Below are positions 11,605 through 33,554 of a stretch of DNA of 40,489 nt, one piece after another. A program made the translations under genes and the position numbers. The stretch lies in IMG/VR virus record IMGVR_UViG_2693429662_000008, one strand, 5' to 3'. Position 1 is the first letter of the stretch. The number at the start of each line of letters is the position of its first letter. Below the pieces are notes generated by a model, which did no database searches, had not been told where the DNA came from, and was given only the letters and a program-made list of their open reading frames with translations. Origin of the DNA: a virus (lineage: Duplodnaviria; Heunggongvirae; Uroviricota; Caudoviricetes).

Positions 11605-11952
11605 TCAACTCACAGGAATAGTCAGTGACAGGGTTTTGCCGGTGTCCCGGGCCTCGCCGGTCAGCTCAACAATCATCTGACCGTTAAACTGACGCTCGAC
11701 CGTCAGCGAGCTGATGCTGATGCGCGGCTCCCACTTCAGCAGCGCCATATAACAGGCGCACATAATTTGCAGCCTCAGCGCGTCGGTCTGCGGCATATCA
11801 ATCAGGGAGAACAGTAGCGAGCCATAATCGCGGCGCATCACGCGAGATCCAACCGGCGTTCGCAAAATATCGCCACAGCTCTGACGGATGTGATCGGCGT
11901 CAGTGATAGCTCGCCCTGTCTCGCGATTCATGCCGATATATCGGGTTGTCAT
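11605..11952 (-). CDS. W: Baseplate wedge protein W (P2 gpW, gp25-like)
   Basis: 115 aa, same length and position as P2 gpW. Confidence 0.85.
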   Translation of the reverse strand: MTTRYIGMNRETGRAITDADHIRQSCGDILRTPVGSRVMRRDYGSLLFSLIDMPQTDALRLQIMCACYMALLKWEPRISISSLTVERQFNGQMIVELTGEARDTGKTLSLTIPVS

Positions 11953-12590
11953 TTCGTCCCCTCCGTCCAGGCTCCACCTCTTTGCACACCGCCGTGACCG
12001 TGGTCATCCACCACCACGCCATTTGATGAGAGTTTGCCGCCGGTGTGCTCGATATCGCCGCTCATCTTCCCGCCTTTGGTGACCTCGAGCGTGGCGGTCG
12101 TCAGTTTGTTGGTGCAGACAACTTCCGGGGTATCAAGGGTGATGCGGGTCTCGGCTTTCACCGTCACCAGCGGTACCGTCGCGATGATGGAATCCGACGC
12201 CGTAACGTCTGCGGTTTTAATACCGCTCACGGTCAGCGCGCTGGTCTCCGGCTCGTACTCGATAACAGCCCCGTCAGGAAAGGTGATGTGAAAAGCATCA
12301 GCCGACACCGACGGCGCGGGGTGTTCATCCGAAAAAATGCCGGGTAGCACAAAAGCCGTGTCCAGCTCACCACCGACGGCCAGCAGTAAAACCTGCTCAC
12401 CCACAGACGGAGCCCACCAGACACGTGAGCGACCGGCGCGCGCAGTCAGCCACTGAAGCCAGTCGGTAACAATGCCGCCAGTCTGGACGCGACAGCGCCC
12501 GTCATCGAGGCCAACCTCGACAATAACGCCGGTTCGGATCAGATTGCGAAGGAGGCGCTGAATGTCCTGAAGAGTGGATTGTGTTTTCAT
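11949..12590 (-). CDS. V: Baseplate spike/assembly protein V (P2 gpV)
   Basis: 213 aa, MKTQSTLQDIQRLLRNL N-terminus; overlaps the W start. Confidence 0.9.
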   Translation of the reverse strand: MKTQSTLQDIQRLLRNLIRTGVIVEVGLDDGRCRVQTGGIVTDWLQWLTARAGRSRVWWAPSVGEQVLLLAVGGELDTAFVLPGIFSDEHPAPSVSADAFHITFPDGAVIEYEPETSALTVSGIKTADVTASDSIIATVPLVTVKAETRITLDTPEVVCTNKLTTATLEVTKGGKMSGDIEHTGGKLSSNGVVVDDHGHGGVQRGGAWTEGTK

Positions 12591-12675
12591 GCTGGGAAGG
12601 ATGAAGGAAAAACACCTTCAATGTAATTGAGCGGTGTTGTATGCTTTTTAGTACAACTTCAAGAGGATAACCAAA

Positions 12676-13389
12676 TTGGATAACAAGGAATATCAGAGGC
12701 ACTTTGGAATAATAACTGATGAATTACAAAAGCCTTCCGATAAACATTTGAGAGCATTTACGCAGGTTGCTGACATTAGAAAGTTTGAAATTGAGATGTA
12801 TTGGAAAAGAGCTACGTATTTCTGGACCATTATTGCTATTACTTTTACTGGTTATTTTGCTTTAGCCTCCGCAAATAGCTTTCCGTTCAAAAATGCATTT
12901 TCTCTTTTGCTTTCCAGTATGGGATCCGTTTTTACTCTTTCATGGTTTTTGGTAAACAGAGGTAGCAAATACTGGCAGGAAAACTGGGAAAATCACTTAG
13001 ACCTGATGGAAAACGGCATAACTGGGCCGCTCTATAAAACTGTACTCTCACGACCGTCAGTCGAAGCCAAAAAAAACGCACCTCAACTTGCGAGTACTGA
13101 TAAAGATTTTATCGACAAACATATCACCGGCCCCAAAAAAATATCAGCATCCAAAATTAACCAATTAGTTGCATTTTACTTGCTTGGCATATGGTTAATA
13201 TTAGTAATGACAACAATTACTAACATCTTAAAACTATCATTCTGGAGTGAATCCACGATAGAAGTAGTGTTGAGCGTGGGAGTTTTAATTTGGTCAGCAA
13301 TAGCCACTAGTTTAATGTTTTGTAAGTCAGCCACCTATACAGGAATACAGACTTCAGAGGCAAGAAAACGCTCTTCGAATTTGTTATAA
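12676..13389 (+). CDS. Cargo gene: predicted 4-TM inner-membrane protein of unknown function (possible abortive-infection or exclusion effector)
   Basis: 237 aa from a TTG start preceded by AAGAGGA. Four hydrophobic segments (about residues 50-68, 75-92, 164-185, 197-215) and a charged N-terminal region. AT-rich, opposite strand to the late operon, sits in the S-V moron slot. Confidence 0.7.
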   Translation: MDNKEYQRHFGIITDELQKPSDKHLRAFTQVADIRKFEIEMYWKRATYFWTIIAITFTGYFALASANSFPFKNAFSLLLSSMGSVFTLSWFLVNRGSKYWQENWENHLDLMENGITGPLYKTVLSRPSVEAKKNAPQLASTDKDFIDKHITGPKKISASKINQLVAFYLLGIWLILVMTTITNILKLSFWSESTIEVVLSVGVLIWSAIATSLMFCKSATYTGIQTSEARKRSSNLL

Positions 13390-13502
13390 CGTTGGTGATA
13401 CACTAATAAATTCATTTAAAGCCCTCAGTTTTGGGGGCATGTAATCTCTACTTTCTCACGGAAAGAGAGTCCAGGATGTACACCAGCGCTTGACGCGGAA
13501 AG

Positions 13503-13600
13503 CTAGTCACTGGTGGCAATACTGCGGGTGCGACATAGACTACGCAGGAAGCGCACAATATCCGGAAAGTAGGTTGTGTTTTCGTGTGGGAAAGGATGCC
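13503..13600 (-). pseudogene. Relic of a second gene V 5' end (degenerate duplicate of the V start region)
   Basis: Minus-strand sequence CATCCTTTCCCACACGAAAACACAACCTACTTTCCGGATATTGTGCGC aligns with the real V start CATCCTTCCCAGCATGAAAACACAATCCACTCTTCAGGACATTCAGCGC. ATG is mutated to ACG and there is a frameshift; similarity continues for roughly 90 nt by eye. Confidence 0.45.
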
Positions 13601-13657
13601 GCCTTAGAAGATCGGCGGCAATAGAGGTATGCAGTTCTATCTCTGGTAAAATTTTGT

Positions 13658-14734
13658 TTATTTTCGTTTGCCATAAGACTGGGTTAGAATTGGAGTAATA
13701 TCCTTAGTAAAGATATCTAGTCTTTCTTTTTCGGCTGAGAAAACATACTGTCTGGCTTGAATTACATTTTGCCTACTAATTAAGTTTGACACCTTTTCTG
13801 GTTTGCTTAGTGCAACTTTGGCACCCTTGAATATCAACGCTAAGCCCGGTGATATTGTAAAAATACATCCATTATCAAATGAAAAATCATTTTTTAAGAA
13901 AATAAAAGGAAAATCACTTGAAACAATGGCATATCCCTTAGGTGCTGAGTACAAATATACCCTACAACTACTCTCATTGGTGATTGAGGAAAAAGGTAAC
14001 GCCATAAATCTATGCATCTTTCTAAGTAAGTAAAACATTTCCCTCCGCTGTCCGCTGTCCGCATTAACTAGATACGTTCCTCCCTCCTTTAGTATAGATA
14101 ACAAAGACCTCCATTCAGAACGTGGGATTATGCTCGCACCAGAAGGAATGAGATCCTTATTAGTATTCAGTACTTTCTTGATGGTGGTGTTTATATTTTT
14201 TAATTTTGGCATGGAGCCTTTATCAAAAAAATCATCCATACCTTTGTTTCTATAACATAAAAAACGGGCCATGAAAATTGCCATGTTTTTTAAATCGTTG
14301 AAATCAATCTCATGCAAACCACTACATACTATCGAACGTGCGAATTTTTTTTCCGAAAGCTTGCCAAGCAACCAGTGTCTACGCACGAAATAATGACTAC
14401 CTGAAGCATTTTTAAAATGCTCCTTTAATTTATAAAATTGCCACATTGCGTCTACAAAATCAGGGTAACAATCCTCTAGTATTTTAAAACTGTCCTCAAT
14501 AAAGTTATCTCTATCCCCATCAATATAAAGAGTATGCCTTCGCTCTTGACCACAAATTTTTGTGGCATTAAGAAAAGTAATCCTTTCTTTTATTTGCTTT
14601 TTGGTGGCATCTGTTTTCACAAAACCATAAACAGTATCTTTCCCAGTCTTTGGGTCTTCAGATGTTATTTTAAAATGCCTGATATAAGTTGCAGGCAGAT
14701 AATGCTGATAGTTTTGAAAAGTTCCCTTTGACAT
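13658..14734 (-). CDS. Cargo gene: DUF4238-like protein, candidate single-gene anti-phage defence protein
   Basis: 358 aa from the ATG at 14734 (GGAGG 5 nt upstream); the ORF track TTG at 14746 is an alternative. N-terminal motif HYLPATYIRHF resembles the conserved start of DUF4238 proteins as I recall them (not verified by HMM). AT-rich, and starts 13 nt after the gene S stop. Confidence 0.75.
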   Translation of the reverse strand: MSKGTFQNYQHYLPATYIRHFKITSEDPKTGKDTVYGFVKTDATKKQIKERITFLNATKICGQERRHTLYIDGDRDNFIEDSFKILEDCYPDFVDAMWQFYKLKEHFKNASGSHYFVRRHWLLGKLSEKKFARSIVCSGLHEIDFNDLKNMAIFMARFLCYRNKGMDDFFDKGSMPKLKNINTTIKKVLNTNKDLIPSGASIIPRSEWRSLLSILKEGGTYLVNADSGQRREMFYLLRKMHRFMALPFSSITNESSCRVYLYSAPKGYAIVSSDFPFIFLKNDFSFDNGCIFTISPGLALIFKGAKVALSKPEKVSNLISRQNVIQARQYVFSAEKERLDIFTKDITPILTQSYGKRK

Positions 14735-14747
14735 AGTAACCTCCAAT

Positions 14748-15200
14748 TTACCAAGTCATAATTTTTTTAATGATAATATATTCAACCTCTTCAGTTAAAT
14801 CATTATTGAAACCAATGAGTGGTCGAGTGGGGTATTCAATCCGTCTGCTGTTAATGTTTGGGGCATCCTTTAACCCGTACTGATGCACCTTAGCCATACG
14901 CTGTACCTTGCCGGTAAATTCCACGACCGCCGCGTTATTCCCCGCCGTGGCTTTCATAAAGCGACTGGTACGGAGTTTGGCGAACATTTCCCGCTTAACC
15001 CGGCCTTTTTTGGCTTTTACCGGCTGGCGTTTTCGGGCGGCGTAAGGTGTCCCGTCCGGGGCTTTCTGCGTTTTAATCCGGCGCTGTTGACGGGCTCGCA
15101 GGGTCTTCGCGATATCTGCGGCCATTCTGCGACGGGCGGCAGGTGACAGCGCCGCTATCAGCCCCGCGAGCTTATCGTCAAAGGGTTTAAAGTCATTCAT
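14748..15200 (-). CDS. S: Tail completion protein S (P2 gpS)
   Basis: 150 aa, same length as P2 gpS; the 3' end is AT-rich, suggesting the C-terminus was remodelled by the adjacent insertion. Confidence 0.85.
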   Translation of the reverse strand: MNDFKPFDDKLAGLIAALSPAARRRMAADIAKTLRARQQRRIKTQKAPDGTPYAARKRQPVKAKKGRVKREMFAKLRTSRFMKATAGNNAAVVEFTGKVQRMAKVHQYGLKDAPNINSRRIEYPTRPLIGFNNDLTEEVEYIIIKKIMTW

Positions 15201-20655: not shown

Positions 20656-22425
20656 ATGACTACTACCAATGACACATCACTACTCAGCGACCCGCGACGA
20701 CAGGCCGCGCTTTTGTTCTGGCAGGGCTATTCCGTGCCACAAATCGCGGAGCAGTTACAGGTCAAGCGCCCCACGGTGCAGAGCTGGAAACAGCGCGATA
20801 AATGGGAAGAGACCGCCCCGTTAAACCGGGTTGAATTCACGCTTGAGGCACGGCTGATTCAGCTCTACGCAAAGCCCGACCTGACGGCTCACGACTTTAA
20901 GGTCGCGGATTTTCTGGCGCGCCAGATGGAGCGCCTCGCGCGGGTTAACCGCTACGGCCAGACCGGCAACGAAGCGGATTTAAACCCGAACGTGGCCAAC
21001 CGCAACAAAGGGGAAAAGAAGAAGCCGAAAAAGAATTTTTTCAGCGAAGAGGCTATCGAGAAACTCGAAGAGATTTTCCTCGAGCAGTCTTTCGACTATC
21101 AGCTCGAGTGGTGGCGCGCGGGGCTGGCGCACCGCATCAGGCACATCCTGAAATCGCGACAGATTGGCGCGACGTTCTATTTTGCGCGTGAGGCACTGTT
21201 ACAGGCGCTGAAGACAGGCCACAACCAGATATTTTTATCAGCCAGTAAGACACAGGCCTACGTGTTCCGAAAATACATCATCGCCTTTGCCCGACAGGCT
21301 GGCGTTGAACTCACCGGCGACCCGATTGTGCTCGGCAACAATGGCGCGGAGCTGATGTTTCTCGGTACCAATGCCAACACCGCACAGAGCCACAACGGCG
21401 ACCTGTATGTCGACGAAATTTTCTGGATCCCCAACTTCCAGAAACTGAAGCGTGTCGCCGGGGGTATGTCGTCACAGGAGCATTTGCGCACGACCTATTT
21501 TTCGACCCCCTCATCGCTGGCGCACGGAGCTTACCCGTTCTGGTCGGGTGAGCAGTTCAACAAGGGGCGCTCAGACAAGAGCGAGCGAGTCGATATCGAT
21601 ATCAGTCACGCCGCACTCGCGAGGGGCGTCGCCTGTCCTGACGGCCAGTGGCGACAGATTGTCACCATCGAGGACGCACTCGCCAAAGGGTGCACGCTGT
21701 TCAACATCGATACGTTAAAGCGCGAGAACAGTGTCGATGAGTTCCGCAACCTGTTTATGTGCGAGTTCGTCGACGATAAAGCGTCGGTATTCCCGTTCGA
21801 AGAGCTGCAACGCTGCATGGTCGACAGCCTCGAGAAATGGGAGGACTACGCGCCATTTGCCGACAGGCCATTCACTCATCGTCCGGTGTGGATTGGCTAC
21901 GACCCGTCATTACGTGGCGACAGCGCCGGATGCGTCGTTATCGCGCCGCCAGTCGTTGCCGGTGGCAAATTCCGCATCCTCGAGCGCCACCAGTGGAAAG
22001 GGATGGACTTCGCCCAACAGGCCGAATCCATTCGCGAGCTCACGCAGAAATACACTGTGGAATATATCGGTATCGATGCGACCGGGCTCGGTCAGGGCGT
22101 CTTCCAGCTCGTGCGCTCGTTCTACCCGGCCGCGCGTGAAATCCGCTACACGCCAGAAATGAAAACCTCAATGGTGCTCAAAGCCAAAGACACCATTCGC
22201 CGCGGTTGCCTCGAGTACGACGTCAGCGCAACCGATATCACGCAGTCGTTTATGTCTATCCGCAAAACCATGACCAGCAGCGGGCGCAGCTCGACCTATG
22301 AGGCCAGCCGCACCGAGGAAGCCAGTCACGCCGATCTCGCATGGGCAACCATGCACGTATTAATCAATGAGCCGCTGACCGCCGCGACCGGTGAGCAGTC
22401 ATCCAGCATCATGGAGTGGAACTAA
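20656..22425 (+). CDS. P: Terminase ATPase (large) subunit P (P2 gpP)
   Basis: 589 aa; divergently transcribed from O as in P2. Confidence 0.9.
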   Translation: MTTTNDTSLLSDPRRQAALLFWQGYSVPQIAEQLQVKRPTVQSWKQRDKWEETAPLNRVEFTLEARLIQLYAKPDLTAHDFKVADFLARQMERLARVNRYGQTGNEADLNPNVANRNKGEKKKPKKNFFSEEAIEKLEEIFLEQSFDYQLEWWRAGLAHRIRHILKSRQIGATFYFAREALLQALKTGHNQIFLSASKTQAYVFRKYIIAFARQAGVELTGDPIVLGNNGAELMFLGTNANTAQSHNGDLYVDEIFWIPNFQKLKRVAGGMSSQEHLRTTYFSTPSSLAHGAYPFWSGEQFNKGRSDKSERVDIDISHAALARGVACPDGQWRQIVTIEDALAKGCTLFNIDTLKRENSVDEFRNLFMCEFVDDKASVFPFEELQRCMVDSLEKWEDYAPFADRPFTHRPVWIGYDPSLRGDSAGCVVIAPPVVAGGKFRILERHQWKGMDFAQQAESIRELTQKYTVEYIGIDATGLGQGVFQLVRSFYPAAREIRYTPEMKTSMVLKAKDTIRRGCLEYDVSATDITQSFMSIRKTMTSSGRSSTYEASRTEEASHADLAWATMHVLINEPLTAATGEQSSSIMEWN

Positions 22426-23462
22426 TGAGCAAGAAACGCAACAAGCGCCAGCAGCAGCCGCGCACTCAAAACCACACCGCCGCACCGGCGCAGAGCATGG
22501 AAGCATTCACTTTTGGTGAGCCGACGCCGGTACTCGACCGCCGCGATATTCTCGACTACGTCGAGTGCATCGACAACGGCCAGTGGTACGAGCCGCCGGT
22601 GAGCTTTTCCGGGCTGGCGAAGAGCATGCGCGCCGCCGTGCATCACAGCTCGCCGATTTACGTGAAGCGTAATATTCTGGTATCGACCTACATCCCGCAC
22701 CCGCTGTTATCCCGTCAGGACTTCACCCGGTTTGCGCTCGACTATCTGGTGTTTGGTAATGCGTTTATCGAAGAGCGTCGCGGCCTGACCGGCAAGCCGT
22801 TAAAACTGGAAACTTCACCGGCGAAATATACCCGCCGTGGCATCGAGGATGACGTGTACTGGTATATTCAGTCCTACACGCAGCCGCACCAGTTCGCGCC
22901 CGGCTCCGTCTTCCACCTGCTCGAGCCCGATATTAATCAGGAGCTTTACGGGATGCCGGAATACCTGAGCGCGCTCAATTCAGCCTGGCTGAATGAATCG
23001 GCGACACTGTTCCGTCGCAAGTATTACCAGAACGGCGCACATGCGGGTTACATCATGTACGTGACCGACGCGGCGCAAAGCAGCGCTGACGTCGAGGCGC
23101 TGCGAAAGGCGATGCGCGACTCAAAAGGGCTCGGCAATTTTAAGAACCTATTTTTCTACGCACCAAACGGTAAAGCCGACGGGATTAAAATTGTGCCGCT
23201 GAGCGAAGTTGCCACGAAGGATGATTTTTTTAATATCAAGAAAGTCAGCGCCGCTGACCTTCTCGACGCGCACCGCATCCCATTCCAGCTTATGGGCGGT
23301 AAGCCCGAGAACGTCGGCTCAGTGGGTGACGTTGAGAAGGTGGCAAAGGTCTTTGTGCGTAACGAACTGACCCCGCTACAGGCGCGGTTTATGGAGCTGA
23401 ACGAGTGGGCGGGTGAAGAGATTATCCGCTTCGAAAAATATAGCCTCGGCGACGACGAGTAA
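22416..23462 (+). CDS. Q: Portal (capsid vertex) protein Q (P2 gpQ)
   Basis: 348 aa immediately downstream of and overlapping P. Confidence 0.9.
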   Translation: MELMSKKRNKRQQQPRTQNHTAAPAQSMEAFTFGEPTPVLDRRDILDYVECIDNGQWYEPPVSFSGLAKSMRAAVHHSSPIYVKRNILVSTYIPHPLLSRQDFTRFALDYLVFGNAFIEERRGLTGKPLKLETSPAKYTRRGIEDDVYWYIQSYTQPHQFAPGSVFHLLEPDINQELYGMPEYLSALNSAWLNESATLFRRKYYQNGAHAGYIMYVTDAAQSSADVEALRKAMRDSKGLGNFKNLFFYAPNGKADGIKIVPLSEVATKDDFFNIKKVSAADLLDAHRIPFQLMGGKPENVGSVGDVEKVAKVFVRNELTPLQARFMELNEWAGEEIIRFEKYSLGDDE

Positions 23463-23929: not shown

Positions 23930-25147
23930 TTAATTAGCTTTATCAAGGCGTCCCCCCACCACCATCCGCTTGTAATTTATTGCGAACAACTTAATTTTTT
24001 CAGGGAACTTTGACGCCAAAATTATTGACTTTCTGTCTACATATGAATAAAAGGGCATTGATATCAAAATAGTTATCATCGAAGTTAAGATAAATGTAAC
24101 AAACGCACCAACGGACGGCGACGCAATGTTTTTGTAAACCCAAAAACCAACTATAGATATAACAAATGGATGAAGCAAGTATATTGAAAATGACAACTTC
24201 CCAATAAACAAGACTACATTTTTGCTCATCCCCCTTAAACATCTCCCATTCACAAAGACAGAAGCAATAATCAAAAAAGAACCAAGCGATATTGTAAACT
24301 CTGGCCATTGTATTAATATACCGCATTGAAACTGAAGGTAGAGGTAAAATTCAACCAGATCTTTATACGCAGTGCTCGCCGGTGCATACCCAACAAGATA
24401 AAGGCCAATAAACAACATAAGAAGCGATACAAACTTTCTTAACCGTCCATTATTTTCACTTATCTCGAAAGTTGATAAAAACACACCAGAAAGGAAAAGC
24501 CCATAATAAATTACATTAATACTACCAGACAAAAACATGCAAACAAATGAAATAAACGACAACCAGCGAAGAATGGTCTTGTTCTCACCAAACAGAGATA
24601 TAAATCCGTATACCAATATAGAACCAAAAAACTCAATACTAATAGTCCACAGAACATAGTTATACTTTATATTACCAAAAAGCATAGCGCCAAATGAAGC
24701 ATCCCATATGGCTGACACTATATTCCCATCAAAACTAAACGCAGTCATTAACGGCATTGATGCAGCGGGGCTATCCTTATCCGGAAAAAAGCCCAACAAC
24801 ATTATAAAATAGCAAATAATCACAGATGCTGCTACGGGAACCCCAAGCCTAATGTATCTCTTCAATGCTGATGCTTGTATATAACGTATTTCGTTATTAT
24901 TTTTTTGGCAACTCAGTGACAAAACCAACCCGCTCAAAACAAAGAATAAGCTAACAGCAGATCCCCCCTTATAGAAAAAAGTAAAAGGGCTATTAAATAA
25001 ATTTTCTTGCCACTTGCTATCAAACATACTGCCAGAATGCACCGAAGGTATAAACATTAAAAATGAATGCGATAAAACGACAGCCATGGCTGCCACACCT
25101 CTTATCCCATCAAAGATTTTTACATTATTTCTCTCATTATCACTCAT
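23930..25147 (-). CDS. Cargo gene: membrane acyltransferase, acyltransferase-3 family (O-antigen/polysaccharide acetyltransferase-like; probable lysogenic conversion gene)
   Basis: 405 aa, about ten hydrophobic helices, N-terminal FDGIRGVAAMAVVLSHS motif typical of acyltransferase-3 (Oac-like) proteins. Strongly AT-rich; sits between cos and the replication region where P2 carries tin/old. Confidence 0.85.
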   Translation of the reverse strand: MSDNERNNVKIFDGIRGVAAMAVVLSHSFLMFIPSVHSGSMFDSKWQENLFNSPFTFFYKGGSAVSLFFVLSGLVLSLSCQKNNNEIRYIQASALKRYIRLGVPVAASVIICYFIMLLGFFPDKDSPAASMPLMTAFSFDGNIVSAIWDASFGAMLFGNIKYNYVLWTISIEFFGSILVYGFISLFGENKTILRWLSFISFVCMFLSGSINVIYYGLFLSGVFLSTFEISENNGRLRKFVSLLMLFIGLYLVGYAPASTAYKDLVEFYLYLQFQCGILIQWPEFTISLGSFLIIASVFVNGRCLRGMSKNVVLFIGKLSFSIYLLHPFVISIVGFWVYKNIASPSVGAFVTFILTSMITILISMPFYSYVDRKSIILASKFPEKIKLFAINYKRMVVGGRLDKAN

Positions 25148-25440
25148 GCAAAAAACCTTTTATAATAAAAAATGTCATTTCGATTAACGTATTGTATTGG
25201 TTATTATTGTGTTATAACTGACAATCAACCTTAAAAAAACGCGGCATTATAGCACCTTAAGCCTGTTGTATGAATATCATTATTGTTTTGACAGGAAGAG
25301 TTCCGTTTACGCCCCACCTAACCTTCGGAGCACTGAGTAGTGCTCCCAATGAGGTTGGAATAAGGGGAGATTCAAAAAATAGCTGACCATTCTATGCAGG
25401 CAACCCAACTACCAGCATACAACTTGTTTTTTCTCGCAAC

Positions 25441-25623
25441 TTACTCAGCCTTTGTTAATCGTTCTTCAGCATGGGTTGCAGAGAAAACCAGTGAAAAGGA
25501 GTTATTTTTCATCAAGTTGCCTCTCACTATTTCTGCAATCAAATTCAATGCGATTTCACGGTCTCTTTCCTTACAAGTCCCTTCAGCCGTTAGACGCGCA
25601 ATCATTTCGACTCGCTCAATCAT
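25441..25623 (-). CDS. Small ORF under a LexA box (position of the 186 tum antirepressor; possibly truncated)
   Basis: 60 aa from the ATG at 25623 (MIERVEMIARLTAEG...), 46 bp downstream of a consensus LexA box. The longer ORF-track start at 25734 would translate the operator itself and is rejected. Function inferred only from position and regulation. Confidence 0.35.
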   Translation of the reverse strand: MIERVEMIARLTAEGTCKERDREIALNLIAEIVRGNLMKNNSFSLVFSATHAEERLTKAE

Positions 25624-25668
25624 AACGTGCTCACTTAATTCTCTATCCACACAACCTCCACAACGAGA

Positions 25669-30783: not shown

Positions 30784-31787
30784 TGACTGTCCGTAAAAAT
30801 CCGGCTGGCGGTTGGATTTGTGAGCTCTACCCAAACGGTGCAAAAGGCAAACGTATCAGAAAGAAATTCGCTACTAAAGGCGAGGCGCTGGCGTTTGAGC
30901 AGTACACCGTTCAAAACCCGTGGCAGGAAGAAAAGGAAGACAGGCGCACGTTAAAAGAGTTGGTTGATTCATGGTATAGCGCTCATGGCATTACACTGAA
31001 AGACGGCTTGAAACGCCAGCTAGCCATGCACCATGCTTTTGAGTGTATGGGCGAACCACTTACACGCGATTTCGATGCGCAGATGTTTTCCCGCTACCGA
31101 GAAAAACGGTTAAAAGGCGAGTACGCCCGTTCAAACAGAGTGAAAGAGGTATCGCCTCGCACGCTTAATCTTGAGCTGGCCTACTTCCGGGCTGTGTTCA
31201 ATGAGCTAAACCGCCTCGGAGAATGGAAGGGTGAAAACCCACTGAAAAACATGCGCCCATTCCGCACAGAAGAAATGGAAATGGCCTGGCTGACTCACGA
31301 CCAGATTTCGCTACTGCTCGGAGAGTGTAAACGGCATGACCACCCTGATTTAGAAACTGTGGTAAGAATTTGTCTCGCCACTGGCGCACGGTGGTCTGAG
31401 GCCGAGAACCTGAGAAAAAGCCAGCTTGCGAAATACAAAATCACATACACCAACACGAAAGGCAGAAAAAACCGCACCGTTCCAATTAGCAAAGAGCTCT
31501 ATGATTCTCTGCCTGATGATAAAAAAGGCAGGTTGTTTAGTGATTGTTATGGCGCGTTCCGGTCTGCGCTGGAAAGAACAGGCATCGAATTACCGGCAGG
31601 GCAACTTACCCATGTTTTACGCCACACCTTCGCCAGTCACTTTATGATGAATGGTGGTAATATTCTGGTCTTGCAGCGCGTGCTCGGTCATACCGACATC
31701 AAAATGACAATGCGTTACGCACATTTCGCCCCAGACCATCTGGAGGATGCAGTAAGGCTAAACCCACTGAACAACAACAGAGATTAG
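30780..31787 (+). CDS. int: Tyrosine integrase (P2/186 integrase family)
   Basis: 335 aa; C-terminal catalytic motifs HVLRHTFASHFMMNGG and LGHTDIKMTMRYAHF (R/H-x-x-R...Y); start overlaps the cI stop. Confidence 0.9.
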   Translation: MMTVRKNPAGGWICELYPNGAKGKRIRKKFATKGEALAFEQYTVQNPWQEEKEDRRTLKELVDSWYSAHGITLKDGLKRQLAMHHAFECMGEPLTRDFDAQMFSRYREKRLKGEYARSNRVKEVSPRTLNLELAYFRAVFNELNRLGEWKGENPLKNMRPFRTEEMEMAWLTHDQISLLLGECKRHDHPDLETVVRICLATGARWSEAENLRKSQLAKYKITYTNTKGRKNRTVPISKELYDSLPDDKKGRLFSDCYGAFRSALERTGIELPAGQLTHVLRHTFASHFMMNGGNILVLQRVLGHTDIKMTMRYAHFAPDHLEDAVRLNPLNNNRD

Positions 31788-31797
31788 CCCCATTAAG

Positions 31798-33261
31798 TCA
31801 TTTGCCGAGCATCTCTCTTAAATCTTGAGCCCAATGCGTATCGTCAGATTGGATCGTTCCTTCAACATCAGTAAGCAGTTTTTGCTCAAGAATTGTCTCG
31901 GCATTTCGACTCTGGCTAAAGTATCTTACCGTTTCGGCAAAGTCCCAATTCTCATCTGCAAGCAGGCGCGGCTGGAAAGAATGACAGTAGATTGCAGCTA
32001 TATCTTTACCCATAAAGTCAAAATCAGAAATCAATTCGCAAATTTTCATATCACGTGCAAATTCGATCTGAGGGCCATGCAAGGTTTCATATCCAATATG
32101 AATTATTGTTGATTCTCCAATCGGAGCCTGCTTTACAGCCTGAACAAGTACCCTTTTTATATCTTTTGCCTTTTTATCGACAGACTCATCAGCGAGACAA
32201 ATCCATTTTGCGCAGAAAGGCATTTCTATCTCATCAATGAATACATTTATTGTACTAAGTTCATCATTGCTAAAAGTGCATAACTTTGCGTTGCAAACCA
32301 TTGTATAACTTCCAAACGGGTCATACTGGTCATCTAATAAGGAATTTAATTGAGGAGAAGGATATTTCACATGCCACTTTCTTAAGTGGTTATCCACCCG
32401 TTCCATATCAATTAAGTTAGCCTGAACCAAAATATCATCGCTCTCACATACTGCAATCTTACCTTTCACAAGATGATCAGAGCCGTAAATTTTTGCTACA
32501 GCACCGAGAAACACATCGATACGCGTTTTTACTATTTCAGTTTTGAAAATCACATCAAAAAAAACTGGCTTATGGTATCGAGTAATCAATGGTCGAGCCA
32601 TTTCCCACCGCTTCAACCACTCCGCCCTTTCTTCTTCTGAGTACTGAGTCACCTTTGCTAATCGCTTGCACTCAACATAAAAAATATCAGTGCCTTTAAC
32701 AACTTTGAGGTCTGGTGTTTTATGAGCTCCTGTTTCTGGAATGAACTCAACTTCCCAGCCATTTTTCAAATAGCAGATAGCCACAACCAACTCAAACAAA
32801 ATGGAATCAGGCTGGTTGATTGTCTTAACAAGCAAGTCATTTAATTTGGATTCAATACCTTTGACCTGCTTCAACTTTTCGCTATGTTCACCGATAACTG
32901 CGAAAAAATGCCAAATTCTTGACGACTGAGCTGGCTCATCTACTGTTGGGCGATCAGCCAAAGATTCAACTAAGTACAAATACCATGCAATCCAGTCATC
33001 ATAGAATGCCAGGCGTGCATCTTTCTCATGGAAAGAAACGTCAGATTTTCCTGTGAAAAGGCGCTCCGACATTTCGCGGAAGTAAGCCAAAACCGCCCCA
33101 CGACGCTCAACCCATTTATCTTCACCCATTACATCAATAAACCAACGGTATGCTGTTTTTATCTCTTTGACTAATGGTGCATCATGTCTATGATTGAAGC
33201 GTTCAAAAAATGCAGCATACTCATCTTCAACACTCTGATTTTTGGTATTTTTTTCACCCAT
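31798..33261 (-). CDS. Cargo gene: large protein with a PD-(D/E)xK nuclease motif, candidate defence/abortive-infection nuclease
   Basis: 487 aa from the ATG at 33261 (AGGTGGA upstream; the ORF-track start at 33294 is an alternative). Motif FELVVAICYLKNGWEVEF...TPDLKVVKGTDIFYVECKRL fits the E...PD...(D/E)xK pattern. No P-loop seen. AT-rich; lies between int and the distal att core, convergent with int. Confidence 0.75.
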   Translation of the reverse strand: MGEKNTKNQSVEDEYAAFFERFNHRHDAPLVKEIKTAYRWFIDVMGEDKWVERRGAVLAYFREMSERLFTGKSDVSFHEKDARLAFYDDWIAWYLYLVESLADRPTVDEPAQSSRIWHFFAVIGEHSEKLKQVKGIESKLNDLLVKTINQPDSILFELVVAICYLKNGWEVEFIPETGAHKTPDLKVVKGTDIFYVECKRLAKVTQYSEEERAEWLKRWEMARPLITRYHKPVFFDVIFKTEIVKTRIDVFLGAVAKIYGSDHLVKGKIAVCESDDILVQANLIDMERVDNHLRKWHVKYPSPQLNSLLDDQYDPFGSYTMVCNAKLCTFSNDELSTINVFIDEIEMPFCAKWICLADESVDKKAKDIKRVLVQAVKQAPIGESTIIHIGYETLHGPQIEFARDMKICELISDFDFMGKDIAAIYCHSFQPRLLADENWDFAETVRYFSQSRNAETILEQKLLTDVEGTIQSDDTHWAQDLREMLGK

Positions 33262-33505
33262 CGTGATTCCACCTAGCTTATGCGGTTTATGCATTCAAGA
33301 TTAACTAACTTGCATGTTATCATTTTTGATATCAGGCAAGTGTTAGTCACGCTATAAAGGCTAGGTTGCCGTTTAAAGGCAATATGATAAGTGGCGATAA
33401 AGTGGCGGTAGAAATGGCTGATAATGTCTAATCACTGGCAAACGCTGGCCATTTATGTCAATGATAAATAAAGCAAACTATTGATTTTCGGTTGTTCAGG
33501 TAGGA

Positions 33506-33554
33506 ACTCATAATCGCTTGGTCGCTGGTTCAAGTCCAGCAAGGGCCACCAAAT
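33506..33554. repeat. Prophage attachment core (distal copy, partial tRNA 3' end)
   Basis: Direct repeat of 1605-1653 with one mismatch; sequence upstream of it is unrelated to the tRNA 5' half, so this is a partial tRNA duplicate typical of integration into a tRNA gene. Confidence 0.85.

What the first reader, a model, noticed from the sequence alone, without database searches (positions are those of the whole stretch)
13503..13603. Degenerate duplicate of the gene V start region inside the cargo insert
The minus-strand sequence at about 13600..13503 aligns with the real V ribosome-binding region and first roughly 30 codons (CATCCTTTCCCACACGAAAACACAACCTACTTTCC versus CATCCTTCCCAGCATGAAAACACAATCCACTCTTC), with ATG mutated to ACG and a frameshift. 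This relic separates the two cargo genes. That implies the slot was filled in at least two steps, or by recombination between two P2-family phages carrying different cargo upstream of V. It is direct evidence of repeated cargo exchange at this site.
Basis: seen in the sequence. Interest (0 to 1): 0.55.

Follow-up and report, generated by a model that had tools for sequence, protein, structure and literature searches.

The report
Dead gpV start between prophage cargo
A decayed second copy of the promoter and first codons of the baseplate gene V sits between two cargo genes of a P2-like prophage; it is a non-functional scar showing that a second cargo cassette was stacked onto a well-known cargo slot by recombination, which is informative but ordinary.

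Summary
A profile of the V promoter plus V 5' end, built from 94 other P2-like phages, hits the window twice. One hit is the true V (E=3.6e-80). The other is 13651-13517 on the minus strand (E=3.3e-13).

The relic is larger than reported. It holds the 72-nt PV promoter region with its conserved hairpin, then V codons 1-23 (ATG changed to ACG, one frameshift), then about 70 nt of GC-rich remnant that cannot be aligned.

It evolves at the rate of 4-fold degenerate sites, loses different pieces in different lineages, and is not annotated. I read it as a fossil.

It is old. It is present in related prophages of Citrobacter, Pantoea, Serratia and Enterobacter. It travels with the 3' flank of the reverse-oriented RipA/8xMP gene, not with DUF4238. 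In other lineages the forward cargo upstream of it is a Septu system or a 179-aa gene.

Single-cargo states exist: S-DUF4238-PV-V, and S-RipA(reverse)-PV-V.

Best reading: a RipA-PV-V cassette from one P2-like phage was joined illegitimately inside V of another. The relic then marked the right border of a nested sub-slot where cargo kept being exchanged.

The S-V (orf30) slot is already a known moron site. Interest is modest.

The parts
14748..15200 (-). Tail completion gene S. It is the left anchor of the S-V cargo slot.
   Evidence: Pfam Phage_tail_S, E=1.3e-33. PGAP calls it 'phage virion morphogenesis protein'.
13658..14734 (-). Forward-oriented cargo gene (DUF4238, 358 aa). It starts 13 nt after the S stop. 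GC is 0.35.
   Evidence: Pfam DUF4238, 27.8 bits against a cutoff of 27. No PADLOC or NCBIfam hit. Homologues occur alone before V in L043 and L038, and on IncFII plasmids in L034-37.
13586..13657 (-). Relic, part 1: the 72-nt V-upstream (PV late promoter) region. The activator dyad has decayed (TTT-N12-ACT where the resident promoter reads TGT-N12-ACA).
   Evidence: nhmmer model positions 7-72. The spacing matches the 71/67 nt between DUF4238 and the V ATG in L043/L038. P2 annotates an activator site and the transcription start at the V ATG.
13597..13620 (-). Conserved hairpin TGCCGCC-N10-GGCGGCA inside the relic promoter.
   Evidence: dG -14 kcal/mol, z -4.2. The motif lies 9 nt before the V ATG in more than 100 IMG/VR P2-like contigs. 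It is kept in all six relic copies, with G-U changes.
13517..13585 (-). Relic, part 2: V codons 1-23. The start is ACG (13585-13583), with a 1-nt deletion and an in-frame stop.
   Evidence: It is 73% identical to the resident V 5' end, which ranks first among 102 V alleles compared.
13448..13516 (-). Relic, part 3 (inferred): a further-decayed V remnant. Its register is ambiguous: either codons ~45-66 after a 64-nt deletion, or codons ~33-47.
   Evidence: GC 0.54, against 0.37-0.38 in neighbouring cargo. It is orthologous in position to V-like sequence in the L032 relic (model to position 219) and the L254 relic (model to 263). It is not significant alone.
13421..13438 (-). Terminator-like hairpin at the junction between the relic and the RipA 3' end, oriented for late-operon (minus-strand) transcripts.
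   Evidence: dG -7.9 kcal/mol, z -2.1. Kept in 5 of 6 relic loci with two compensatory C-G to U-A changes. Homology with the relic-free L250 locus starts here, at 13437. It fails the strict T-run terminator scan.
12676..13389 (+). Reverse-oriented cargo gene: RipA / 8xMP octameric membrane protein family, 237 aa, TTG start. GC is 0.37.
   Evidence: Pfam PF24838, E=3.6e-36. PGAP name. It has the same position and orientation as the non-homologous orf30 of P2.
12591..12675 (-). Resident, presumably functional PV promoter. It carries a TGT-N12-ACA dyad at 12655-12638 and is a different sequence type from the relic promoter.
   Evidence: Read. The same box, TTGTA...AAAAGCATACAACACC, precedes V in L009, where only RipA is present. 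Resident promoters rank 89-102 of 102 in similarity to the relic promoter.
11949..12590 (-). Intact baseplate spike gene V, the right anchor of the slot.
   Evidence: Pfam Phage_base_V, Phage_spike and Apex. nhmmer E=3.6e-80.

Best explanation
The element is a non-functional fossil of a former PV-promoter/V-start junction.

Proposed history (inferred):
- An ancestral P2-like phage had the ordinary hairpin-type PV promoter directly upstream of V.
- It recombined with another P2-like genome that carried [late-operon terminator - RipA on the opposite strand - its own PV - V]. This is the layout seen today in L009/L342. P2 itself has the same layout with the unrelated orf30.
- The left join was illegitimate and fell inside V at about codon 50-66. 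The right join was homologous, in V or beyond. An equivalent route is a circular fragment integrating by one crossover in the V 5' end.
- The product, S-(forward cargo)-PV'-V'(truncated)-terminator-RipA(reverse)-PV-V, keeps an intact V and gains about 1.1 kb.

What happened afterwards:
- The truncated copy lost its start codon and picked up frameshifts, stops and lineage-specific deletions.
- The composite spread through Enterobacterales prophages.
- The forward cargo to the left of the relic was exchanged several times (DUF4238 here, Septu or a 179-aa gene elsewhere). The relic therefore now marks the right border of a nested sub-slot.

Shown: homology, extent, neutral decay, shared 3' junction, the single-cargo architectures and the alternative partners.
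Inferred: the recombination mechanism and the order of events.
For: Homology:
- z is about 17 against shuffles.
- The profile scan of the window gives E=3.3e-13.
- The Serratia copy gives E=1.8e-39 and the Enterobacter copy E=9.5e-20. tblastn finds V residues 14-54 at 63% identity.

Fossil status:
- Intergenic identity between orthologous copies is 0.76-0.81. Four-fold degenerate sites of the two flanking genes give 0.72-0.81.
- ATG is kept in Serratia and Enterobacter but lost in E. coli, Pantoea and the metagenome copies. Deletions differ between lineages.
- PGAP annotates nothing there.
- The relic is a GC island, 0.48-0.54, between cargo genes at 0.35-0.37.

Parental states:
- S-DUF4238-71 nt-V (L043/44) and S-DUF4062-DUF4238-67 nt-V (L038-40), both with the same hairpin.
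- S-RipA(reverse)-V (L009, L342).
- P2: S-terminator-orf30(reverse)-activator site-V.

One ancient event:
- The same junction motif, (A)AGTGCATGATGATATGnCCC plus the terminator hairpin, follows the relic downstream of DUF4238, of Septu and of the 179-aa gene.
- Septu is identified as PtuA at 5e-39 and PtuB at 5e-26.

Two genomes rather than a simple duplication:
- The relic promoter is closest to hairpin-type promoters (L038V ranks 1, 3 and 2 for the three relic copies compared).
- The resident RipA-linked promoters rank 89-102 of 102.
- The resident type is shared with the 47%-identical RipA locus L009.
Against: - No extant S-relic-RipA-V locus without forward cargo was found, and no donor or recipient with near-identical sequence. 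The order of acquisitions is therefore open.
- The coding half of the relic is closest to the resident V allele family, ranks 1-7 of 102. That is also what an in-situ duplication would give.
- The two promoter types are distantly alignable, so they could be diverged copies of one sequence.
- The two hairpins are better kept than the rest (89% of cells paired). Part of the region may therefore still be used.
- The 3' limit of the relic in this window is not statistically demonstrable.
Confidence: 0.7

Rival explanations
1. In-situ origin within one phage. A tandem duplication of PV plus the first ~60 codons of V arose, and RipA was inserted between the copies. Alternatively RipA was inserted with a long target duplication. 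No second P2-like genome was involved.
For: The coding half of the relic is most similar to the resident V alleles of the same loci: ranks 1-7 of 102, identity 0.64-0.78. The two promoter types can be loosely aligned around GCATAC...AAGG.G...CATCCTT.
Against: The upstream 72 nt of the relic group with the common hairpin-type promoters. The resident promoter ranks at the bottom and is shared with a very distant RipA-only phage, L009. RipA therefore seems to have arrived already attached to its own PV. This model needs two rare events, or a non-viable intermediate with V interrupted.
Confidence: 0.15
2. The region is partly functional. The retained PV' hairpin and the junction hairpin would terminate the late S-DUF4238 transcript and insulate it from the convergent RipA gene. 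Alternatively PV' still fires with Ogr and makes a short late transcript. This is compatible with a fossil origin.
For: Hairpin 1 has dG -14 and z -4.2; hairpin 2 has dG -7.9. Both are kept in six diverged copies with 89% of cells paired, against 31-50% for slid controls. There are two compensatory changes in hairpin 2 and G-U changes in hairpin 1. Hairpin 1 survives even in L255, where the rest of the relic has nearly gone. In empty-slot phages this hairpin is the only structure between the S stop and V.
Against: - Neither hairpin is followed by a proper T run, and the terminator scan finds none.
- The activator dyad is degraded in the window (TTT...ACT).
- Overall divergence equals that of synonymous sites.
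- Covariation support is weak: 20 of 500 shuffles reach the score, with only six sequences.
Confidence: 0.25
3. DUF4238 and RipA form one obligate two-gene system, and the sequence between them is a conserved regulatory spacer of that system rather than a scar.
For: All DUF4238 homologues of 77% identity or more have the convergent 8xMP gene about 270 nt downstream, with the same spacer.
Against: - DUF4238 homologues occur without 8xMP (L034-44).
- RipA homologues of 83-90% identity pair with Septu, a 179-aa gene or DUF5677 instead.
- RipA also occurs alone in the slot (L009, L342).
- All 80 GTDB loci examined show RipA outside any P2 context.
- The spacer is recognisably PV + V and drifts neutrally.
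Confidence: 0.04
4. The resemblance to the V start is chance similarity.
For: None beyond its short length. blastn with 11-mers did not link the two copies.
Against: No shuffle of 1000 reaches the score. The independent profile gives E=3.3e-13. Less decayed orthologues reach E=1.8e-39.
Confidence: 0.01

Closest known systems
The orf30 'moron' region between S and V of P2-like phages. It is one of three known variable regions, with Z/fun and the TO region.
   Same: Same slot, between tail completion gene S and baseplate gene V. In P2 the cargo gene orf30 lies on the opposite strand, between the O-operon terminator and the PV activator site, exactly as RipA does here. The literature already describes this slot as holding horizontally acquired genes that differ between phages (PMC6823313, PMC3091744).
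   Different: RipA is not homologous to Orf30. Here the slot holds two cargo units separated by a dead copy of PV-V'. I found no description of such a relic in the papers searched. That search was narrow.
Anti-phage hotspots of P2-like phages and P4 satellites (Rousset et al. 2022, PMC9122126).
   Same: A small locus between two conserved phage genes with high turnover of cargo. One lineage carries a bona fide defence system (Septu) at the position DUF4238 occupies here.
   Different: That hotspot is next to cos, not between S and V. DUF4238 and RipA have no PADLOC hit, and a defence role for them is untested.
Mosaic-junction scars and gene fragments left by illegitimate recombination in tailed-phage genomes, and homology-facilitated illegitimate recombination with one homologous and one non-homologous join. 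This comparison rests on my own knowledge of the Hendrix/Hatfull mosaicism literature and of de Vries and Wackernagel 2002.
   Same: A truncated duplicate of a backbone gene lies exactly at the border of inserted DNA. One junction falls inside a gene and the other in homologous sequence. The fragment then decays neutrally.
   Different: None in kind. The unusual points are that the scar is shared across several genera and that cargo on one side of it keeps changing.

Membership tests
gpV baseplate spike gene (Pfam Phage_base_V) - as a pseudogene fragment | Sequence homology to the V 5' end and its upstream region | tested here: met
   nhmmer E=3.3e-13 in the window. The Serratia orthologue gives E=1.8e-39, and tblastn finds V residues 14-54 at 63% identity.
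gpV baseplate spike gene (Pfam Phage_base_V) - as a functional gene | Start codon, open reading frame, and the OB, spike and apex domains | tested here: not met
   ACG replaces ATG; there is a 1-nt deletion and a TAG stop. At most ~66 of 213 codons are represented, so no domain is complete.
P2 late promoter PV (Ogr/delta-activated) | Position: activator dyad about 65 nt, and core promoter 0-47 nt, upstream of the V ATG, which is also the transcription start | tested here: met
   The relic aligns to profile positions 7-72 with the same spacing. The P2 annotation gives the activator site and the start at the ATG.
P2 late promoter PV (Ogr/delta-activated) | Intact TGT-N12-ACA type dyad (consensus recalled from the literature) and activity with Ogr | tested here: inconclusive
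   The resident promoter has TGT-N12-ACA at 12655-12638. The relic reads TTT-N12-ACT at the equivalent place (read). Activity cannot be tested with these tools.
Intrinsic (rho-independent) terminator | GC-rich stem-loop followed by a T run | tested here: not met
Stable hairpins exist, but their tails have 4 or fewer T in 8.
P2 S-V (orf30) moron slot | Non-essential, compositionally foreign genes between S and V that differ between related phages | tested here: met
   Cargo GC is 0.35-0.37 against 0.51-0.60 for S and V. The slot is empty in most hairpin-type phages and holds 0.7-2.2 kb in others. Alternative contents are listed.
Known anti-phage defence systems (PADLOC) | The cargo proteins match a defence-system model | tested here: not met
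   No PADLOC hit for DUF4238 or RipA. Only the Enterobacter counterpart cargo matches Septu PtuA/PtuB.

The most novel reading that the evidence does not exclude
The dead PV-V' copy is more than a scar. It would still work as a patch of backbone homology that splits the S-V slot into two nested sub-slots. Incoming P2-like phages of the common S-X-PV-V type could cross over in S and in the relic. That would swap the forward cargo (DUF4238, Septu, the 179-aa gene) while leaving RipA in place. This would be a simple way for a size-limited phage to stack and shuffle accessory or defence genes. Decay of the relic would also protect the stack from deletion by recombination with the true V start.
Probability: 0.3. 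Interest if true: 0.55.

Novelty: new member of a known kind. Interest (0 to 1): 0.3.

Why it matters
It gives a dated, sequence-level footprint of how cargo accumulates at one of the three classic variable sites of P2-like phages. One illegitimate join occurred inside an essential gene and was rescued because the incoming cassette carried its own promoter and gene start.

It also shows that the RipA/8xMP gene is the stable, promoter-proximal occupant in this lineage, while the promoter-distal position turns over (DUF4238, Septu, others). That makes DUF4238 and RipA reasonable candidates for anti-phage or exclusion functions.

Extra copies of PV-V' could serve as a cheap marker for finding stacked cargo in prophage surveys.

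It does not reveal a new kind of element or mechanism.

Tried and rejected
- blastn of the relic against E. coli genomes and the phage collection found only the identical locus in five genomes. The relic is too diverged for 11-mer seeding, so I switched to profiles.
- Megablast of the slot against the phage collection found no match.
- IMG/VR search with the DUF4238 protein found nothing.
- The 15-mer of the resident promoter in IMG/VR gave 83 hits, but only one (the L009 contig) lies next to V. The rest are chance.
- The GTDB scan returned only distant RipA relatives (55% identity or less), and none of the 80 loci examined has S or V nearby.
- The metagenome scan returned mostly distant relatives and added no new architecture. 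Of its few close loci, L340 repeats the Pantoea type, L341 repeats the 179-aa-gene type, L339 is a 1.4-kb fragment, and the distant L342 repeats the RipA-only type.
- I first read L026-29 as non-phage contexts for the gene pair. That was wrong: they keep S 3' and V 5' fragments, so they are decayed prophages.
- I tested whether P2 Orf30 is a RipA homologue. It is not.
- I tried to define the 3' end and register of the relic in this window by pairwise alignment to V and to the Serratia and Enterobacter relics. None was significant: 581, 158 and 729 of 1000 shuffles reached the observed score.
- Literature and PDB searches for the RipA/8xMP function returned only RIPA buffer and spurious matches.
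- An identity ranking with free end gaps gave artefactual 100% values. I redid it with penalised ends.

Full report
**Setting**

The window carries a complete P2-like prophage, running from ogr at 1808 to the integrase at 31787, with the late genes on the minus strand. Between tail gene S (14748-15200) and baseplate gene V (11949-12590) lie two AT-rich genes:
- A forward-oriented DUF4238 gene (13658-14734), which starts 13 nt after the S stop.
- A reverse-oriented RipA/8xMP membrane-protein gene (12676-13389).

The finding concerns the 268 nt between their convergent ends. The identical locus occurs in five complete E. coli genomes. The only difference from the window in the compared stretch (12400-14900) is at 13691, inside DUF4238.

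Yes.
- The minus strand 13598-13517 aligns with the true V start 12603-12521 with score 55. One thousand dinucleotide shuffles give 16.9 +/- 2.2, and none reach 55.
- As an independent test I collected the 72 nt upstream and 300 nt downstream of the V ATG from 94 other P2-like phages and built a profile with no window sequence in it.
- Scanned over the whole window on both strands, that profile gives two significant hits: the real V (E=3.6e-80) and 13651-13517 on the minus strand (42.7 bits, E=3.3e-13).

**What the relic consists of**

It begins immediately after the DUF4238 stop. Its first 72 nt correspond to the region upstream of V.
- In the P2 GenBank record that region holds the activator binding site of the PV late promoter, and the V transcription start is annotated at the V ATG. 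It is therefore a promoter, not a ribosome-binding region.
- The region contains a strong hairpin, TGCCGCC-N10-GGCGGCA (13620-13597, dG -14 kcal/mol, z -4.2).
- The motif TTGCCGCC-N10-GGCGGCATC occurs in at least 120 IMG/VR contigs. In 102 of them an ATG lies exactly 36 nt after the motif start, and tblastn places V there. In most of these the S-V slot is empty, with about 72 nt between S and V.
- After the promoter come V codons 1-23 in recognisable form (13585-13517).
- The next ~70 nt (13516-13448) have phage-like GC (0.54, against 0.37-0.38 for the neighbouring cargo). They occupy the place where less decayed orthologues still read as V. In this window they are not significantly similar to V or to those orthologues, and their register is ambiguous.
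- A second, weaker hairpin (13438-13421) follows, then the RipA stop.

**Orthologous copies elsewhere**

DUF4238 homologues of 77-99% identity were found in Citrobacter, Pantoea dispersa, Serratia marcescens and several metagenomes. All have the convergent 8xMP gene or its remnant, and the same spacer.
- Loci that first looked non-phage (L026-29) retain S 3' and V 5' fragments, so they are decayed prophages.
- The Serratia copy keeps the ATG and matches the profile from -62 to codon 49 (E=1.8e-39).
- An Enterobacter copy matches to about codon 64 (E=9.5e-20).
- Different lineages have lost different pieces, and stop codons differ.
- Between orthologues the spacer is 76-81% identical. Four-fold degenerate sites of the two flanking genes are 72-81% identical. 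The spacer therefore drifts at about the neutral rate.
- PGAP annotates nothing there.
- Only the two hairpins are noticeably retained: 89% of cells paired against 31-50% for slid controls, with weak covariation from six sequences.

**The relic is tied to RipA, not to DUF4238**

RipA homologues of 83-90% identity occur in the S-V slot with other partners.
- Enterobacter sp. ECC-019 and a metagenome contig (L253/254): S - PtuA - PtuB - V' relic - RipA(reverse) - V. The forward cargo is a Septu system (PADLOC 5e-39 and 5e-26).
- L255-258 and L341: S - 179-aa gene - strongly decayed relic - RipA(reverse) - V. The hairpin and AATCCACTCT are still visible.
- E. roggenkampii (L250-252): a reverse-oriented DUF5677 gene replaces the forward cargo and the relic. 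Homology with the window starts at the junction hairpin, 13437.

The relics next to DUF4238, Septu and the 179-aa gene share the same 3' junction, (A)AGTGCATGATGATATGnCCC followed by the hairpin. I therefore infer one ancestral relic that predates the split of these lineages, and at least two later changes of the forward cargo.

Homology between the window and the Septu locus on the left side begins inside the relic promoter, at about 13620. The activator-proximal part of the window-type relic resembles the promoter downstream of DUF4238 in L038. This fits exchange by crossovers within the relic, but the data are thin.

**Parental architectures**

Both single-cargo states exist.
- L043/44 (Pectobacterium odoriferum): S-DUF4238-71 nt-V.
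- L038-40: S-DUF4062-DUF4238-67 nt-V.
- Both have the hairpin before the V ATG. Their spacing matches the 72 nt between the DUF4238 stop and the relic's ACG.
- L009 and L342: R-S-RipA(47% identical, reverse)-V-W, with no DUF4238.
- Their V-upstream box, TTGTAGGGAAAAGCATACAACACC, is nearly the same as the resident one in the window, TTGTACTAAAAAGCATACAACACC.
- P2 itself has S - terminator - orf30(reverse) - activator site - V. Orf30 is unrelated to RipA.

**Mechanism**

The product has an intact V preceded by its own promoter, a reverse cargo gene, a late-direction hairpin, and then a truncated PV-V'.

The simplest route starts from a [terminator-RipA-PV-V...] segment of one P2-like genome. That segment joined another P2-like genome by a non-homologous join inside V (around codon 50-66) and a homologous join further right. 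Equivalently, a circularised fragment integrated by a single crossover in the V 5' end.

A mosaic pattern supports two genomes rather than a plain tandem duplication:
- The promoter half of the relic is closest to the common hairpin-type promoters. The resident promoters rank 89-102 of 102.
- The coding half is closest to the resident V allele family, ranks 1-7 of 102.

That coding similarity is also what a duplication would give, so I keep that rival at about 0.15. Whether DUF4238 was already present when RipA arrived, or was swapped in later through S and the relic, cannot be decided. No S-relic-RipA-V locus without forward cargo turned up in the GTDB, IMG/VR or metagenome scans.

**Function**

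The body of the relic is best regarded as dead. The hairpins may still serve to end the S-DUF4238 late transcript and separate it from the convergent RipA gene. That is an inference from their retention only. Neither hairpin passes a strict terminator rule.

The cargo genes have no PADLOC, NCBIfam or PDB relatives that indicate a function. RipA/8xMP is a very widespread family, with 1776 proteins at E<1e-20. In the 80 GTDB loci examined it lies outside P2 contexts.

**Comparison with what is known**

The S-V (orf30) interval is one of three regions long known to carry horizontally acquired, non-essential genes in P2-like phages (PMC6823313, PMC3091744). The defence hotspot described by Rousset et al. 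is a different site, next to cos (PMC9122126).

Gene-fragment scars at mosaic junctions are a familiar feature of phage genomes (my own knowledge). This is therefore a new, well-documented example of a known kind.

The somewhat unusual points are:
- its persistence across genera;
- its constant association with RipA;
- the turnover of cargo, including Septu, on one side of it.

**Verdict**

The element is a fossil. Interest is modest (0.3).

Noticed in passing
L140 (IMGVR_UViG contig), about 1100-1980: This P2-like contig has two copies of the PV hairpin motif and two or three S 3'-end fragments in tandem before V. It is a different kind of duplicated-backbone relic in the same S-V slot.
   Followed up: no
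window 12588-12660 and P2 record AF063097 10239-10308: V has no Shine-Dalgarno sequence, and the P2 record places the V-operon transcription start at the V ATG, so the transcript is leaderless. The GC-rich hairpin conserved in more than 100 phages overlaps the -35 to -10 region of PV. In empty-slot phages it is the only structure between S and V, so it may double as the O-operon terminator.
   Followed up: partly
window 23930-25650: An acyltransferase-family gene (23930-25147) lies next to a partial DinI pseudogene (25450-25650), downstream of the portal gene (22425-23462). This may correspond to the cos-adjacent hotspot of Rousset et al. It looks like a second cargo-plus-relic situation in the same prophage (PGAP annotation).
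   Followed up: no
window 31798-33261: A 487-aa hypothetical gene sits between the integrase and a 105-nt feature that PGAP calls 'tRNA-OTHER' (33447-33551). ARAGORN does not call that feature. The only tRNA it finds is the CAT-anticodon tRNA at 1575-1650, beside ogr.
   Followed up: no
L034-L037 (Escherichia albertii and related IncFII plasmids): A DUF4238 homologue (66% identity) is plasmid-borne, between a ParM/StbA partition module and a PemK/MazE toxin-antitoxin pair. There is no 8xMP gene, so this cargo gene moves between phages and plasmids.
   Followed up: no
L041/L042 (Pantoea deleyi), 4001-6347: Two different DUF4238 genes (363 and 287 aa) lie convergently next to a phage-type integrase, outside any P2 late region.
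   Followed up: no
L019 and L021 (Logan metagenome contigs): The same S-DUF4238-relic-RipA-V locus is present, but V is cut at 146 aa and fused to the C-terminal part of the sheath gene. This is a large internal deletion from W to FI, so some carriers are defective prophages.
   Followed up: no
L032/L033 (Serratia marcescens): In Serratia the RipA gene itself is degraded: a 100-aa fragment in L032 and frameshifted pieces in L033. DUF4238 stays intact, and the relic is the best preserved of all copies.
   Followed up: partly
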